Source: Octopus vulgaris (taxonomy: Eukaryota). From it: a DNA stretch of 64,000 nucleotides. How positions within the stretch are numbered: position 1 is the stretch's first letter; every line of letters starts with the position of its first letter. Location of the stretch: contig OX597822.1 of the NCBI GenBank assembly GCA_951406725.2, positions 22,444,001 to 22,508,000 of the forward strand. The letters are read 5' to 3'. This document shows, piece by piece, positions 39,531-54,787 of the stretch. The position numbers and the translations under genes were made by a program. The notes beneath the pieces are model-generated. The model saw only the letters and a list, made by a program, of their open reading frames with translations, was not told the origin of the DNA and did no database searches.

Positions 39531-39816
39531 AGAATATCACTGCATCAAAGTAATTTCTCTCATTACATTGCTAAAATAAAGTACTCCATTTTCTCACTCC
39601 AAAAGAGTTAATGACATCAACATTTTAACATTCATCTTTCCTTGCTTGAATAGACCAGATTGGATTCACAGATGTAGATTTACTATAGCCAAATGCCTTT
39701 CCTGCTCCCAGTCCTCACTTGTTTTTTTAGCAAGATAATATTTCCTTATGGCCAGATGTTTACATGGAAGATTGGAATCCAATGATGCCACTTGTATAAC
39801 ATGACTCTCATTTACA

Positions 39817-40453
39817 TTATTTACACTATTTACATTTGGTGGCTATTTGTCGTCATCTTGATTGTTGTTAACACAACGTTTTGGCTGATATACCCTCCAA
39901 CCTTTATGAGATGTCTTGGGGAAATTTTGAACCTGGGTTCTCATTCCTAAGGTGTTTTTCGATATTATTATTATTATTATTATTGTTATTATTATTCAGG
40001 TCACTGTTTGGAATCAAACTCGGAATCTTGGGGTTAGTCACATACACTCTTAACCACTATGCCATATGCCCATGGGCATATAGCGTTGTGGTTAAGTGCA
40101 TGGGCTACTAACCCTAAGATTCCGAGTTCGATTCCAAGCAGTGACCTGAATAATAATAATAACAATAATAATAATAAACAACCCTAATAATAATAAACAA
40201 CAATAATAATAATAAACAACCCAAGGGTTTGGACCGTTTGAGCGGTCCAAATAATAATAATAATAATAACATCGAAAAATACCTTAGGAATGAGAACCCA
40301 GGTTCGAAAATTCTGCAAGACACCTGATGAAGGCTGGAGGGTATATCAGCCAAAACGTTGTGTTAACAACAAACAAGATGAGGTCAAATATCCATCAAAT
40401 ATAAATAATGTAAATAATGTACATAATTCCTCATCGCTTAAATATAGAACTGT
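39817..40453. mobile_element. Head-to-head palindromic retroelement; each arm is a tRNA-like head, (AAT)n and a hammerhead motif
   Basis: 16-bp TSD atgactctcatttaca at 39801-39816 and 40454-40469. Symmetry axis at 40072/40073. Box A at 40081-40091, box B gagttcgattcc at 40124-40135. Hammerheads at 40319-40364 (+) and 39870-39915 (-). Confidence 0.88.
40319..40364 (+). ncRNA. Minimal type I hammerhead, one core substitution
   Basis: GACAC CUGAUGA A GGCUG gaggguauau CAGCC AAAAC GUU GUGUU. GAAAC has become AAAAC at a CpG. Palindromic stem III ACGU. Confidence 0.7.
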
Positions 40454-41589
40454 ATGACTCTCATTTACAGCTATTACATGTGTCAAGAGTAGACACGCCC
40501 ATGCACTAACACACACAATGGACTCCTTTTAGTGTCCATCTACAAAATCCTCTCACAAGACTTTAGTTAAGCAAGGATTATAGTAGAATACACTTGCACA
40601 AGCTGCCACTGTGAAGTTGAACCCCAGACCACATGGTTAGAAAATAAACATTTTACACACACAATCATGCCTTTACCTTTATATGTATAACTACTTATTT
40701 GCTTCATAGACTGTAAAATGTTGCTCCTGGATAGGTATAGTCATTTGATAACATACTGAACAATTGTCCTACGGTATTGAAATAATGATATCCATGAACT
40801 GGCTTAAAACATAATGTCACTAATGAGTGGAATGAGAAATGCATTTAGCACTTTTTTATCCACTAATAGTAAATGCATAATCACTAGATGCCTTTTGCCA
40901 CCTCATTTGATGACTACAACTTGAGAAAACGTTGATGATTTTGAAAATATAATTTCTTTCTCAGTCAAAAGTTTATTATTTAGCTCTAGCAAATTTGCTG
41001 CCTTCAATACAGTGATTTTAAGTGGGGCAGAGTATGGCCATTGTTTCTGTAGAAATTGATTAGCTTGAATCAGTAAATATTTGAAATTTTGAAGGTTTAT
41101 CAGTTACGCTATTAAATTTCTGATCAAGAAAAATAGCAGACACAGTTAAGGGTGATAGTTTAGCTTCAAATTCAGTCTCAAGCGACTAATATCATGACAA
41201 TGCAGAGATAAGCAGAATCAGAAATTCCAGACAGCAAGATCTTCAACTACTAAGCAGTAAGTGTTTATTTCAATGTTTAGAATCCAATTATATTAAACTC
41301 GTTTCCATCAACAGGTTGCATGTTAAGAGGATTTACAGTAAATTTCATATCAAGCTTTTTTCACAATGTCTTTGTGAACCAAAGACAATTCTCCATGAAC
41401 AAGTTGTGTGCATTTATTGTGCCAGAAAGAACTTTTTGTTTTGGCTTTTGGTGCATTGATATGGTTAATACTATTGGTTCTCAGCAAATCTTTGCAGAGT
41501 ATCCTATCATTTCATAATTAAGACATTGTCAATAGTGGGACATATTATTTATGTCAATATAAAGGTTTTACTAGCTTACTCATCCTTTT

Positions 41590-45030: not shown

Positions 45031-45237
45031 ACAGATCGAGACCAACAAATGTCTATATCTATCTATATCATGGAGTTGGATAGATGTGACATAGTGAGTG
45101 AGGAGGGGATAGGAGTTCTATTATGTGGGGATTAGTAGGTGTACCAATATGTGTGATGGAGGTTGGATAGGTGTGTCATGCATGGGGAGATTGGATAAGT
45201 GTTCCATTAGGTGAAGAGGGAAATTGGAGAGATGTAC

Positions 45238-45651
45238 CTATTTCTTTACTACCCACAAGGGGCTAAACACAGAGAGGACAAACAAGGACAAACGGATTAA
45301 GTCGATTATATAGACCCCAGTGCATAACTGGTACTTATTTAATCAACCCCGAAAGGATAAAAGGCAAAGTCGACCTCAGGGGAATTTGAACTCAGAACAT
45401 AACCGCAGACAAAATACCTATTTCTTTACTACCCACAAGGGGCTAAACACAGAGAGGACAAACAAGGACAGACAAACGGATTAAGTCGATGATATCGACC
45501 CCAGTACGTAACTGGTACTTATTTAATCGACCCCAAAAGGATGAAAGGCAAAGTCGACCTCGGCGGAATTTGAACTCAGAATGTAACCGCAGACAAAATA
45601 CAGTTAAGCATTTCGCCCGGCGTGCTAACGTTTCTGCTAGCTCGTCGCCTT
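45238..45651 (-). mobile_element. Tandem SINE B dimer (full unit plus 5'-truncated unit) inside one TSD
   Basis: Perfect 15-bp TSD attggagagatgtac at 45223-45237 and 45652-45666. Unit junction at about 45417. Confidence 0.93.
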
Positions 45652-50329: not shown

Positions 50330-52530
50330 CAGGCTTCCATCTCTTCTCGAATTTCTCATGTGACAATTACTGTTTCTTGAGCCTGATCTTGCTGCTGAGG
50401 TGGTAGCTAAAAAAGTTAACCAACCCCTTGCCAGATAACAAAGGTACCCGTCACAATCCCTTTCACATGTGTCTTCCATACCGTTTCTTTTAAAATGGCT
50501 ACCACGCAGTAAAAACAGGCCTTCCTTTCCCCGCTAAGGAAAGAAGGACTCAGCTGATAGCTGTACTCTTCCCATTGATGACAACAGTTGTTCCGTGAAA
50601 GCTATCAATCCCGATAATTCCGGACATCCCACAAATGCGTGCAAGATGGTTTCCCTGTCCTGCCCACACCTCGGACATGACGACGAGACGGCACTTCTGT
50701 GCCTTGACAGCTTATCATGAACCGGTAATGCCACACGGAAGCACTGCCAAGCCAGGGATTTCTGGCAATTATCCAGATACCTCGGCCCGAATGTACTCCT
50801 GAACAGGCTGCTCAACTGATTTTCATTGTAGCCCAGGGTCTCCCCCAAGGCGTCTTCAGACATGAATCCCACTAACCCGCTATAAAAATCCATGGCGGAA
50901 CTTCTGCTGCCAGCATTGCCCGCCCGAGAGAGTAGCTGAAGTGCCTGATGGCACTCCAAATGACATTTTCCCAGTTTAGGTCTCTGCTTGATCCATGTAC
51001 CAATGTCCATTAAGGATGTTAACCTCGGAAGGTAGGACCGGACGTGCGGCGACCACACCTGTTCTCCATCCAGGTAAAGCCAGAGGTGTCTCAATCTTAA
51101 CACGAATTTTCGCATCCTCAGCCAAGGCATCCCTAGCCCACCCATTAGTGGTTTCTGGCAGCAGACAGAGCGCTTCACAAGAGGCTTTCCTCCTTTCCAT
51201 AGAAAGCGGAAAAGGATTCTCTCCAACTTGTTCAGCCACAAATCCGGGCAAGGCACCACGGTCAGATGGTAGGTGATAACAGATGCTATAAACATCTGCA
51301 CCACCTCCGCCTTTTCTAGCAAGGATAATGTCCGCCCAGACCAGGTCTGGGCTAGAGCAGTCACCTTACTGGCTACATCACTCCAAATTTTCTCTCTCTG
51401 GAGGTCTGATCTAAACCAAACACCAAGCAGTTTAACAGGACCTTTTGCCCTACGATGTTATTGGACGTCATTGGCTTGCCTCTCCAGGTGCCAAGTTGCA
51501 AACTGACTGACTTGTCCTTGTTAACCTTTGCTCCTGCCACCCCCTCGTAACTTTTGATGGCCTCTTCCACCACTGGAAGCTAGCTCTCATCCGCCACGAT
51601 GATGGAAATGTCATCTGCATACGCTGTAGCTCCATCTCTGCACCACAGATCATTTGGTGCGCCTCCTAGTGCTTCCAACTTCCGCAGCAGTAGCTCAAGA
51701 GTCAGTACATACAAAAGCGGAGACAGGGTCACCCCTGACGCACTGAGCGTTCGATCCTGAATGGTTTTGAGAAAAATCCATTTATTTTGACTGTAGACTC
51801 GATGTCGCTGTACAAAGCAGCAATCCAACCGCTGAAAGTCGGGACTAGGCCAGCCTTTCCGAGGACTGCTGCCAAGTACCGGTGGTCGACCCTATCAAAC
51901 ACTTTAGACTGGTCTAAATGTACCAGTGCCCCTCCTGTACCAGTAAGATTCCCTACCCTCTCTAAGATGTAGCGTAGAAGATGGAGATTGTCTTGGATCG
52001 ACCTGCCTGGGATGGCACAAGTTTGCGCCTTCCCTACAAGTCTGTCTACGACTCGCGCCAACCTTTTTGCAAACACCTTGGCCAAAATCTTTAACTCTGT
52101 GTTTAGCAGAGTTATGGGCCGAAAGTTACTAATCTCGTCCCTCTTGCTCGGGTCCTTTCTTATTAGCGTCACCACCCCTTGGCTTGCAGACTTCGGAATT
52201 CTCCCATTCTGCTGCCAATTGGTGTAAACACTGGCCAGCAGGTGCCCGAACAAGTCTGGCATATTCTTATAAAATCCATAGGGTAGACCATCGAGACCCA
52301 GCGACTTCTCCCCGGGGCATTCGTCCAGCACCTCGATCACTTCCTCTGCTGTGATTGGCCCTTCACAGCAGAGACATGGGCCGCCAGACAGGAAGTCCCT
52401 AAGGGCCTCACCATGATCTAGCCTCCCAAACAACTCGGCGAAATGTTTGTAAAGCGCCTCACACATCTCGTCCCGTCCTTCGACCGAACTCCCACTATTG
52501 TCAGTCAGAGACCTAATTGTGGCATCATTA
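50330..52530 (-). pseudogene. Tx1 ORF2 (RT plus C-terminal zinc finger), frameshifted, endonuclease missing
   Basis: KSLGLDGLPYGFY, NFRPITLLNTELKILAK, LDQSKVFDRVDH, SVRQG, LSPLLY, AYADD, GGLGMP and CPRCGQDRETILHAFVGC, split across ORFs 51729-52613, 51580-51828, 51373-51573 and 50534-51364. Confidence 0.93.
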
Positions 52531-52569
52531 CCAAGCTGGGTTTGTGTATGCTGGGGTTGGGTCTTTTCA

Positions 52570-53137
52570 TTACTTTGTTTGGGGGTGGAACCACAACAGG
52601 GGAATGGGAGCATTTGATTTTGTGGGGGTCAGTGTATGTGTAGGGTTTGGGATATTTTGAATAGTTGTGAGGACTGGTGTCTGTAACAGTTTTTTCTTGT
52701 TTTCCTCTTCTTTCTTTTTTGTTTCACAATCGCTTCGAATGTGGCCTTTTTTCCCACATTCGAAGCAAGTAACCTTTTTACCCTCCGCTTGAACTCTGAG
52801 GGTAACTTTCTCACCCACGTGTACCCGGTCCGGAAGGTTTTCAATGTCTTCCGGTTTCCCTTGGATGATGGCTGAAATGCTCTGTCTTGTCCAGTATTGG
52901 GAGGCAGAGCATGAGACCTGGAGAAATTGTATTTTGTCTGTCTTGTTATACAACAGGGCAGCCATCACCTCCCGAGGTTCTATTTCCGGCGGCACATCCG
53001 TCACCCTCACACGAGAAGTACGTCTTCCCCTGTAAGAGGGTAGAAGCGCCACCCCCTTTGTCTTCAAGGGGCTAACCGAGTACTCCTGTGCTAACTTCTC
53101 CGTCTTGAAACGGACTTCAATGGTTGCAAAAACTTCG
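52570..53137 (-). pseudogene. Tx1 ORF1 (gag-like) fragment
   Basis: RVRVTDVPPEI...VTCFECGKKGHIRSDC (CX2CX4HX4C). The reading frame is cut off at about 53137. Confidence 0.88.
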
Positions 53138-53383
53138 GGTAAAATTACAGATTAACACCCGCACGATTTTCACTAAGAAAAAAAAAACTCGGATTTTTTG
53201 CGTGGAATCAAGTACCTGACCTCCTAATATGCTGGAAATCCCATATTTTGGTTCGGAATTGGTCCGGAGGGGGATGGGATTTCCAGCATATTAGTAGGTC
53301 AGGGTACTTGATTGCACGCAAAAAATCCGAGTTTTTTTTTTTTCTTAGTGAAAATCGTGCGGGTGTTAATCTGTAATTTTACC
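53138..53383. repeat. About 108-bp near-perfect inverted duplication with a 29-bp spacer
   Basis: 53138-53244 is the reverse complement of 53274-53383. Confidence 0.95.
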
Positions 53384-53506
53384 GTTGCTTTTACTCCATG
53401 CTTTAGTATATTTAACCGTCGAACTCTAATGTTTTGAATTTGTTTACGTGACGGTTCAGTTATTAAACACGCCGTAAGAATATCTTCAGTGTACTTTGTT
53501 AATATA

Positions 53507-54523
53507 ATGCCACTTACTCCGTTACTAATTCGTCAGCAGATTATTAAGCTTCGAAAGAAGGATAATTTAAGTATTGGGTCTATTGCAAAGATTATTAACA
53601 AGTCAAAAAGTTTTGTTCACGGTATTCTTAAGGTCTACGATGATTGTGGTCCGTGTGAAGTAAAAAAGTCTACAGGTAGGCCAAGAAAAACGACCAAGAG
53701 AGAAGATCGTGCTATAGTAAAGTTGGTTAAAAAGGATAGATTTAAAACTGTTGCTGCTGTTTCTCGGGAAATGAGCATTGTATTGAAGAAAACTTTATCT
53801 CGAAAAACTGTGTCTCGTCGTTTAGTTGAACATGACCTACAAGCAAGAGCACCTGCAGTGAAGCCACTGATCAGCTTCAAGAATAAAAAGTGTTGTCTTA
53901 CCTTTGCAACCAAACATGTGTTGTGGTCTCAAGAAAAATGGCAAACGGTGCATTTCAGTAATGAATCTAAGTTTATCTTATTTGGCTCAGATGGGAAAAG
54001 GTACGTTCGTCGAAAAGCAGGTGAAAAATTGTCACCTAAATGCCTTAAGACTAGTGTTAAATTCGGTGGAGGAAGTATTATGGTTTGAGGGATGATATCT
54101 GGAGATGGTGTGGGCCCTTTGGTGCGATTACATGGAAAGGTAAATGCAGGAGTTTATAAACAACTTGTAAAAGATCATGTCTTGTATGTGCTGAGAAATT
54201 CAACTAAGCGACCACCCATATTCATGCAGAACAATGCCCCATGTCACAAGGCTAAGGTGGTCATGAACTTCCTCAAGGCTGAAAAGGTTATTGTTATGGA
54301 TTGGCCTGCTCAAAGCCCAGATCTCAATCCTATGGAAAATGTGAGGAATATTCTAGGAGAACGTTTGAAAGCCAGAAATCCTAAAACAACCGAGCAATTA
54401 TGGAATGCACTTCAGGAAGAATGGAATAAGATCACCCAGCAAGAAATTGAAAATTTAATTTCCACATGCAGTCGAAGATGTCAAAGTCTGATTGAAGCTA
54501 AAGGGTTTTGCACTAAATATGAA
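53507..54523 (+). pseudogene. Tc1-family (DD34E) transposase pseudogene, no TIRs recognisable
   Basis: GRPRKTT..EDR, FSNESKF, VKFGGGSIMV*G (TGG to TGA at 54086-54088, same frame continues), FMQNNAPCH, WPAQSPDLNPMEN, GFCTKY. Confidence 0.95.
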
Positions 54524-54787
54524 ATAATTCCAGCATTCTCTGTCATTTTTTATTATTATGTCATTTGGGCTTTTAGTCCACCTCATCCAACTCGCAAAAC
54601 TTTGGTTAGCCAGAAGCTATAGATTAAGATATTTGCCCAAGATGCCGCACAGAGGCCACTGAGACAGTTCCAACCAATTTTGATTGAATTGTTTCAGTGA
54701 CCAGCTGAAAGTTGTATGTCAAAAGTTTTGACACCTCATTAAGTAAATTTAAATTTAAAGTGAATTTAACAGATTCAACATCAATAT

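What the first reader, a model, noticed from the sequence alone, without database searches (positions are those of the whole stretch)
39817..40453. Palindromic, TSD-flanked element coupling a tRNA-like Pol III promoter to a hammerhead ribozyme: candidate Penelope-mobilised SINE/retrozyme
Seen in sequence: a 16-bp TSD (atgactctcatttaca) brackets two head-to-head arms mirrored at 40072/40073. Each arm reads outward as box A (TAGCGTTGTGG on the right, TGGCATAGTGG on the left), box B (GAGTTCGATTCC / GAGTTTGATTCC), an (AAT)n tract, and a minimal type I hammerhead. The right arm has an anticodon-like GGG-CUACUAA-CCC, which is decayed on the left. The right-arm hammerhead is ACAC CUGAUGA A GGCUG..CAGCC [G>A]AAAC GUU GUGU; the left one is more decayed. 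Established: minimal hammerheads with a palindromic stem III, and inverted terminal copies, are hallmarks of Penelope-like elements, and the schistosome Sm-alpha repeat combines a tRNA-related Pol III promoter with a hammerhead. Inference: this is a non-coding, Pol III-driven, self-cleaving retroelement that borrows PLE machinery rather than a LINE tail. I do not know of a description in cephalopods. This copy is probably inactive.
Basis: partly seen in the sequence, partly recalled or inferred. Interest (0 to 1): 0.85.

Follow-up and report, generated by a model that had tools for sequence, protein, structure and literature searches.

The report
Penelope retrotransposon carrying a tRNA-type promoter
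This palindrome is two head-to-head copies of the end-repeat of an abundant protein-coding Penelope-like retrotransposon, and that repeat carries tRNA-type promoter boxes, so the transposon is likely started by RNA polymerase III and may even be read by it from end to end, which would be unusual for a protein-coding element.

Summary
Each arm is the terminal repeat (pLTR) of an autonomous Penelope/Poseidon-type element (RT + GIY-YIG). In 28 of 30 endonuclease-selected copies the ORF runs into the tRNA-like head, followed in most by (AAT)n and the hammerhead. The hammerhead tail encodes the ORF's N-terminus. Inverted arms, a tail on one side only (41 of 46 pairs) and a TSD are known PLE signatures. 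Solo and ORF-linked repeats share subfamily alleles, so no separate SINE lineage is seen.

Unusual: the pLTR carries A and B boxes, kept in an older sister family and seen in an unrelated intact PLE (L399). Of 72 position-ordered heads, 64 start no more than 14 nt upstream of box A. No TTTT Pol III terminator is conserved in the 2.6-kb sense strand; ORF fragments hold 0 against 3.4 expected (P about 0.01), and none of 37 related ORFs is depleted. Pol III use is inferred; RNA-seq was uninformative. This copy's hammerheads are broken. The scan had not reported this before.

The parts
39801..39816 (+). Left copy of the target-site duplication (its last 7 nt also match the left arm's 3' end)
39810..40072 (-). 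Left arm: inverted pLTR with the short 3' end (no tail extension)
39871..39914 (-). Left hammerhead, decayed in both core halves (CTCATAA; G12>A)
39963..39996 (-). Left (AAT)n tract
40010..40021 (-). Left box B (CpG-decayed)
40054..40064 (-). Left box A
40067..40078 (.). Junction palindrome TGCCCA|TGGGCA: the pLTR's own 5' inverted repeat (TGCCC-AC-GGGCA in the family; TGCCT-AC-AGGCA in the sister family) and the inferred RNA 5' end
40073..40453 (+). Right arm: pLTR with the long 3' end
40081..40091 (+). Right box A
40102..40114 (+). Anticodon-arm-like segment of the tRNA-like head
40124..40135 (+). Right box B, 43 nt after the start of box A
40149..40268 (+). Right (AAT)n tract, interrupted by an unidentified insertion at about 40178-40249
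40290..40453 (+). 5' end of the PLE ORF (ATG, then MRTQVR...TPDEGWRVYQPKRCVNN), overlapping the hammerhead
40320..40363 (+). Minimal type I hammerhead: stem I ACAC/GTGT, core CTGATGA, bulged A, stem II, G12>A at 40352, palindromic ACGT, predicted cut after 40359
40425..40453 (+). PLE 'tail' extension, on this arm only; inferred to lie between two RT start sites
   Evidence: PMC11167929
40454..40469 (+). Right copy of the target-site duplication

Best explanation
The element is an insertion of two head-to-head pLTRs of a Penelope/Poseidon-type retrotransposon whose pLTR carries tRNA-type A and B boxes that likely start its RNA by Pol III about 13 nt upstream of box A. Shown: pLTR = palindrome + tRNA-like head + (AAT)n + hammerhead-overlapping ORF start; two 3' ends about 34 nt apart; TSD. 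Inferred, using the Anolis PAc biochemistry: the RT-EN protein nicks both strands of an AT-rich site and primes one cDNA at each nick, one from each internal start site. Both cDNAs run off the RNA 5' end, and their palindromic 3' ends pair (or one folds back), giving the mirror junction. Solo pLTRs are thus likely run-off copies of the masters' 5' pLTR and mostly dead on arrival. The hammerhead would cut only as a dimer or with protein help, and it is broken in both arms here.
For: The ORF is followed directly by the head in 28 of 30 EN-selected loci (first seen in L009). The RT matches PF00078. The RT fragment is 35% identical over 97% of its length to an Anolis protein, P0014, and the RT tree places it among Penelope/Poseidon-type proteins, far from Neptune-type ones (quick tree). 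The window arm translates to a match with the N-terminus of homologue P0001. The ATG stays in frame in 41 of 49 family arms and 8 of 10 sister arms. One long plus one short end occurs in 41 of 46 inverted pairs, and a TSD score >=9 in 25 of 46 against 0.3% of mismatched flanks. Loose read ends fall at two sites 34 nt apart. Of 72 heads, 64 start at -14 or later and none between -15 and -26, while ORF copies run a median of about 450 nt upstream. Four non-CpG alleles have equal frequency in solo and ORF-linked copies. Boxes are kept in the sister family with a changed spacer and a compensatory change in the palindrome. Boxes score above all 60 shuffles in both arms, L140, sister L355 and L399. 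At a subfamily marker the two arms differ in 4 of 35 pairs against a background of <=1.6% per site, which fits two templates for some pairs.
Against: There is no direct evidence of Pol III transcription. Three RNA-seq runs from a related organism show both strands about equally and no pile-up of starts or ends at the head or at the ribozyme cut. Palindromes at pLTR 5' ends and at inverted junctions occur in rotifer PLEs whose pLTRs have TATA/Inr-like motifs (PMC3846280), so the 5' wall does not need a Pol III start. No held full-length copy was seen to begin at -13; the partial tandem L290 carries ORF end upstream of its head. One sister copy (L369) did not score for boxes. Rfam does not call the head a tRNA. 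No within-family stem covariation was seen.
Confidence: 0.62

Rival explanations
1. Ordinary PLE pLTR pair: the tRNA-like segment is a captured relic or a TFIIIC site, the element is transcribed by Pol II or read-through, and the 5' wall is set by RT fold-back at the palindrome.
For: 5' palindromes and head-to-head junctions are known in PLEs (PMC3846280 passages). The Drosophila Penelope promoter resembles TATA-less LINE promoters (PMC2377424 abstract). The partial tandem L290 points to a read-through template. RNA-seq shows no discrete start.
Against: Boxes are kept across two families about 40% apart in EN protein, with the spacer changed. The wall sits at the distance from box A expected for a Pol III start (own knowledge). 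TTTT depletion is specific to this family. A similar arrangement exists in L399.
Confidence: 0.22
2. One reading: solo pLTRs are transcribed by Pol III and retrotransposed in trans as a SINE-like lineage.
For: Solo heads outnumber ORF-linked heads 66 to 6 in the ordered sample. The unit has boxes and no TTTT. pLTRs can mobilise other sequence in trans (PMC3846280). Sm-alpha is a tRNA-related SINE-like element with a hammerhead (PMC2770079, PMC8490949 passages).
Against: No solo-specific allele among 133 solo and 68 ORF-linked tails, or 103 and 72 heads. In PAc the template must reach nt 172 of the ORF, beyond the mapped RT start region (PMC11167929), so solo copies may lack the binding site (inference).
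Confidence: 0.13
3. Retrozyme: a self-cleaving circular RNA replicating through head-to-tail repeats.
For: A minimal type I hammerhead is present. Animal retrozymes are argued to derive from PLE pLTRs (bioRxiv 10.64898/2026.07.22.740005, abstract and introduction).
Against: Copies are mostly inverted pairs or single units, not head-to-tail arrays. No circular junction appeared among the joints shown (109 joints were not shown).
Confidence: 0.03

Closest known systems
Penelope/Poseidon-clade PLEs, e.g. PAc of Anolis carolinensis (PMC11167929) and Adineta vaga Pen2 (PMC3846280)
   Same: Single RT + C-terminal GIY-YIG ORF; ORF start inside the pLTR, overlapping a hammerhead; inverted pLTRs; a tail of about 30 nt on one side; TSD of about 8-14 nt; palindrome at the pLTR 5' end.
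   Different: This pLTR holds tRNA-type A/B boxes and an (AAT)n tract. The described pLTR promoters are TATA/Inr-like or LINE-like. Solo pLTR pairs dominate the family.
TRIMp3 elements Helenus, Ajax and Cassandra (PMC10886601)
   Same: A small-RNA-gene-derived Pol III promoter sits inside the terminal repeat.
   Different: Those are non-autonomous LTR elements. Here the repeat is a pLTR of an autonomous, protein-coding PLE.
Schistosoma Sm-alpha / Sj-alpha (PMC2770079, PMC8490949 passages; original papers not seen)
   Same: tRNA-related sequence plus a type I hammerhead in a short repeat.
   Different: Described as SINE-like, with no PLE ORF named in the passages seen. Here the unit is the end of a coding PLE and encodes its N-terminus.
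Animal non-LTR retrozymes (PMC7229834; bioRxiv 10.64898/2026.07.22.740005)
   Same: A short type I hammerhead unit related to PLE pLTRs.
   Different: Those are head-to-tail tandems giving circular RNA. This is inverted, TSD-flanked and carries A/B boxes.
Octopus tRNA SINEs OR1, OR2 and OK (Ohshima and Okada 1994; seen only as citations)
   Same: tRNA-derived heads; an Arg origin for OR1/OR2 is recalled, and this head is nearest to host tRNA-Arg among 6 isotypes sampled.
   Different: OR1 and OR2 are listed as CORE-SINEs (PMC4824008, PMC4758252). The body here is PLE ORF start. Sequence identity with OK/OR1/OR2 could not be tested.

Membership tests
EN+ PLE, Penelope/Poseidon type | RT followed by a C-terminal GIY-YIG-type endonuclease in one ORF | tested here: met
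   PF00078 hit; the EN region aligns to Anolis P0014 at E 7e-18; all nearest homologues share one domain set. Pfam GIY-YIG itself did not hit. No intact full ORF was found; it was read from broken natural copies.
EN+ PLE, Penelope/Poseidon type | pLTR from partial tandems, containing the ORF start | tested here: met
   (L181, L188, L219, L290, L387)
EN+ PLE, Penelope/Poseidon type | Inverted 5'-truncated copy and a 30-40 nt tail at one end | tested here: met
   41 of 46 pairs; two ends 34 nt apart
EN+ PLE, Penelope/Poseidon type | Minimal hammerhead in the pLTR | tested here: met
   Family majority has the full core, bulged A and palindromic stem III; features as in PMC4209133. Cleavage was not tested.
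EN+ PLE, Penelope/Poseidon type | RT phylogeny apart from Neptune type | tested here: met
   Quick tree only. Clade labels come from motifs and the Anolis name, not from reference Repbase sequences.
tRNA-derived SINE | tRNA-related head with A and B boxes | tested here: met
   z about 7.5 to host tRNA-Arg; box scores above shuffles; not an Rfam tRNA
tRNA-derived SINE | Head absent from the partner autonomous element (only the 3' part shared) | tested here: not met
   The head is in the autonomous element in 28 of 30 loci
tRNA-derived SINE | Independent propagation (own subfamilies) | tested here: not met
   No solo-specific alleles in the sample; a genome-wide tree was not run
tRNA-derived SINE | Transcription by Pol III | not testable with these tools
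   Standard RNA-seq was uninformative
Non-LTR retrozyme | Head-to-tail tandem of hammerhead units | tested here: not met
Non-LTR retrozyme | Circular RNA monomers | tested here: inconclusive
   No such joint among those shown; the library type is unsuited
TRIMp3 | True LTRs with PBS and PPT, 4-5 nt TSD | tested here: not met
   The repeats are pLTRs of an RT-EN ORF and the TSDs are longer

The most novel reading that the evidence does not exclude
A group of autonomous Penelope-like retrotransposons is transcribed entirely by RNA polymerase III from a tRNA-derived promoter in the pLTR. The 2.5-kb ORF has been purged of TTTT terminators and is translated from an uncapped Pol III RNA. This occurs in at least two families in this genome, and tRNA-type boxes also sit in the pLTR of an unrelated intact element (L399). 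Run-off cDNAs from the promoter-bearing pLTR make the SINE-like palindromes.
Probability: 0.3. Interest if true: 0.88.

Novelty: new variant of a known kind. Interest (0 to 1): 0.62.

Why it matters
How PLEs are transcribed and why they insert as inverted pairs is still open. This family marks a sharp, countable pLTR 5' boundary next to a self-complementary motif with a compensatory change, giving a testable route to head-to-head junctions. If Pol III drives the element, it is a PLE counterpart of the TRIMp3 elements but autonomous, and possibly a natural protein-coding Pol III transcript. It also warns that thousands of apparent tRNA SINE copies in this genome are PLE ends, and suggests checking whether Sm-alpha-like repeats arose the same way.

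Tried and rejected
Rfam (window at gathering threshold; 16 loci and two short stretches by E-value) and ARAGORN at default found no tRNA or hammerhead.

The Pfam GIY-YIG search of G000 returned mostly Neptune-type PLEs; none of the 30 loci or 12 extended stretches had its ORF joined to this tail, so they were rejected as the partner.

The look-up of sequencing runs: no RNA holder listed. RNA-seq laid on L140 gave both strands and no start or end pile-ups; this fits read-through of embedded copies and decides nothing on Pol III.

Within-locus arm divergence (0.084) equals between-locus divergence (0.088), so it cannot separate fold-back from two-cDNA joining. The lower divergence of solo tails was not used, because the solo sample was picked by exact motifs. 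A strict junction regex found only 3 cases and was set aside. The small DNA alignment had a misplaced row and was not used.

Sister-family ORF copies were too short for a TTTT test. A Markov-shuffle test of TTTT weakens with order (P 0.01, 0.08, 0.18), so the codon-shuffle test and outside controls carry that claim. Earlier scan notes were irrelevant or absent.

Full report
1. Observation. The 16-nt direct repeat (39801-39816, 40454-40469), the mirror at 40072/40073, the A and B boxes, the (AAT)n tracts and the hammerhead-like motif are all present as described. The right arm has a roughly 29-nt 3' extension that the left lacks, and a roughly 70-nt insertion in its (AAT)n tract. Part of the TSD overlaps element sequence at both ends. 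The unit is a large family in G000: exact 18-mers occur 6,097 times (head), 10,084 times (tail) and 952 times (ORF end), with 0 for the reversed controls.

2. Ribozyme. Among 83 of 84 aligned arms, the majority reads ACAC CTGATGA A, stem II, GAAAC GTT GTGT. GAAA is intact in 63, and both core halves plus stem III are exact in 17; losses are mostly at CpG sites. This fits the minimal PLE hammerheads of PMC4209133 (parts 1-2 of 4 read). Both window arms carry G12>A and the left has further core changes, so this copy should not cleave (established core requirements). Rfam does not detect the motif. Cleavage was not tested.

3. What it is. Locus L009 showed an RT plus endonuclease ORF running straight into the same head. 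In 28 of the 30 best endonuclease-region loci (of at least 2,632 candidates) the ORF is followed at once by the head, then in most by (AAT)n and the tail; three of these loci are near-duplicates. A natural 375-aa fragment hits RVT_1. It is 55% identical to P0001 and 35% to an Anolis protein, P0014, which I take to be a PAc-type ORF. A quick tree places it among such proteins and far from the genome's Neptune-type PLEs (clade names are from motifs and recall). The window arm itself translates to TPDEGWRVYQPKRCVNN, matching the N-terminus of P0001. An ATG upstream of the hammerhead is in frame in 41 of 49 arms, and in L181, L188, L219, L290 and L387 the tail continues into the ORF. So the arm is the pLTR, and the ORF starts inside it across the ribozyme, as in PAc (PMC11167929, parts 1-2 of 4 read).

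4. Insertion anatomy. Among 100 position-ordered loci, 92 had a tail and 46 inverted pairs were found. Of these, 41 have one long and one short 3' end, and 25 have a TSD score of at least 9, against 0.3% of mismatched flanks (at least one pair is a duplicated locus). Reads show loose ends at two sites 34 nt apart. Inverted pLTRs, a one-sided tail, TSDs and 5' palindromes are described PLE features (PMC8557442 and PMC3846280, passages). PAc cuts and extends both strands and starts RT at two sites that bound the tail (PMC11167929). I infer one cDNA per nick. At a true subfamily marker (hammerhead position 7, 18% against a background of at most 1.6%) the two arms differ in 4 of 35 pairs and share the minor allele in 3, so some pairs probably come from two templates; fold-back of one cDNA is not excluded for others.

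5. Not a separate SINE. If solo units amplified on their own they should carry their own alleles. Four non-CpG variants have matching frequencies in ORF-linked and solo copies: 10/60 vs 21/117, 12/63 vs 18/117, 8/62 vs 20/121 and 18/60 vs 36/100. This is a sample, not a genome-wide tree.

6. What is unusual. (a) The head is tRNA-like: z about 7.5 against host tRNA-Arg, the best of 6 isotypes sampled, with box A and box B starts 43 nt apart. (b) An older sister family has the same order of ORF, spacer, palindrome, box A, box B and hammerhead, with a longer middle, a C-G to T-A change in the palindrome stem, and its ATG in frame in 8 of 10 arms. (c) Of 72 of the first 73 listed head matches, 6 are ORF-linked, 2 reach the spacer, and 64 start at -14 or later relative to box A, 24 of them at -10 to -14. 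ORF copies extend a median of about 450 nt upstream, so about 6% truncation would be expected over that 38-nt stretch, not 89%. (d) No TTTT run is conserved along the 2.6-kb sense strand (coverage is only 1-9 copies over the first 600 nt). Natural ORF fragments totalling 744 codons hold 0 runs against 3.4 expected from synonymous shuffles (P 0.012), while four ORFs from three Neptune-type families are not depleted. None of the 37 long ORFs among 79 related metagenome loci reaches P 0.02, and 0 of the 30 with at least 2.5 expected have none. (e) One of 15 outside hammerhead-upstream regions, in the intact tandem PLE L399, has high-scoring A and B boxes followed by an AAT tract; it has two TTTT runs shortly after the hammerhead and none in the remaining 2.4 kb.

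7. Against. Pol III use is inferred only. Three RNA-seq runs of a related organism (about 6% of each read) show both strands about equally and no pile-up of starts or ends. A palindrome alone could set the 5' wall. No held full-length copy was seen to start at -13. The TTTT result is one family at P about 0.01. No intact ORF was found among the copies inspected (longest 375 aa), and copies are 4-5% diverged at non-CpG sites, so the family may be extinct.

8. Mechanism. Shown: anatomy, linkage to the ORF, two 3' ends, TSD, 5' wall, shared alleles. Inferred: Pol III starts the master RNA at about -13; the protein nicks both strands, primes at two internal sites, and the run-off cDNAs join through the palindrome; longer cDNAs from a downstream junction give ORF-bearing copies. 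Speculative: the whole mRNA is a Pol III product.

9. Literature. Nine full-text searches listed no paper describing a PLE with a tRNA-type pLTR promoter or this family. The library lacks most subscription papers, and Repbase and Dfam could not be searched. PMC13282606 (part 1 of 3, passages, and a term search of one supplement) does not mention hammerheads; its repeat library was not seen and may contain the family. Seen as passages only: PMC10886601, PMC7229834, PMC4758252, PMC4824008, PMC8490949, PMC2770079, PMC8967140. PMC2377424: abstract only. bioRxiv 10.64898/2026.07.22.740005: part 1 of 5, supplements closed. Ohshima and Okada 1994 and Ferbeyre 1998 were not seen.

10. Verdict. The structure in the window is a standard PLE product and the SINE/retrozyme label is not supported, but the tRNA-type promoter inside an autonomous PLE's pLTR appears undescribed in what I could search. 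New variant of a known kind; interest 0.62.

Noticed in passing
L399:180-2970: Intact head-to-tail tandem PLE from an unrelated metagenome contig (2,791-nt unit, repeats 100% identical) with A/B boxes, an AAT tract and a hammerhead overlapping the ORF start (MPDDGGW) in its pLTR; a possible independent case and a natural test substrate.
   Followed up: partly
L325-L375: Older sister PLE family with a tRNA-like head, a compensatory change in the 5' palindrome, a longer in-frame N-terminus and a GUA cleavage triplet.
   Followed up: partly
L121-L125: Young Neptune-type PLE family with an intact 781-codon frame in many copies, a second upstream frame of 300-480 codons, (TA)n flanks and a TTGATAA...GAAA hammerhead variant.
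   Followed up: no
window 40178-40249: Insertion in the right (AAT)n tract with a small hairpin (TGGACCG...CGGTCCA); no match in other held loci. The (AAT)n tract also holds other insertions in L010, L014, L018, L025 and L045.
   Followed up: partly
hammerhead stem III of the family (e.g. L140, L271): An in-frame 3-nt deletion removes the GTT triplet in 15-19% of both ORF-linked and solo copies; either a ribozyme-dead variant that still transposed or a recurrent slip.
   Followed up: partly
L140:1340-2230: RNA runs show more A>G and T>C sites (22-29 and 30-45) than the contig run (9 and 14); this could be A-to-I editing of inverted pairs, but the runs come from different organisms.
   Followed up: no
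L201, L261: Two insertions in opposite orientation share the same target sequence inside another repeat.
   Followed up: no
window 45235-45650: A different tRNA-type SINE on the minus strand with a 184-nt internal tandem duplication.
   Followed up: no
window 50534-53151 (-) and 53438-54622 (+): A broken LINE-like element (RT and zinc-knuckle frames) and a Tc1/mariner-like transposase split by one stop; names are from recalled motifs.
   Followed up: no
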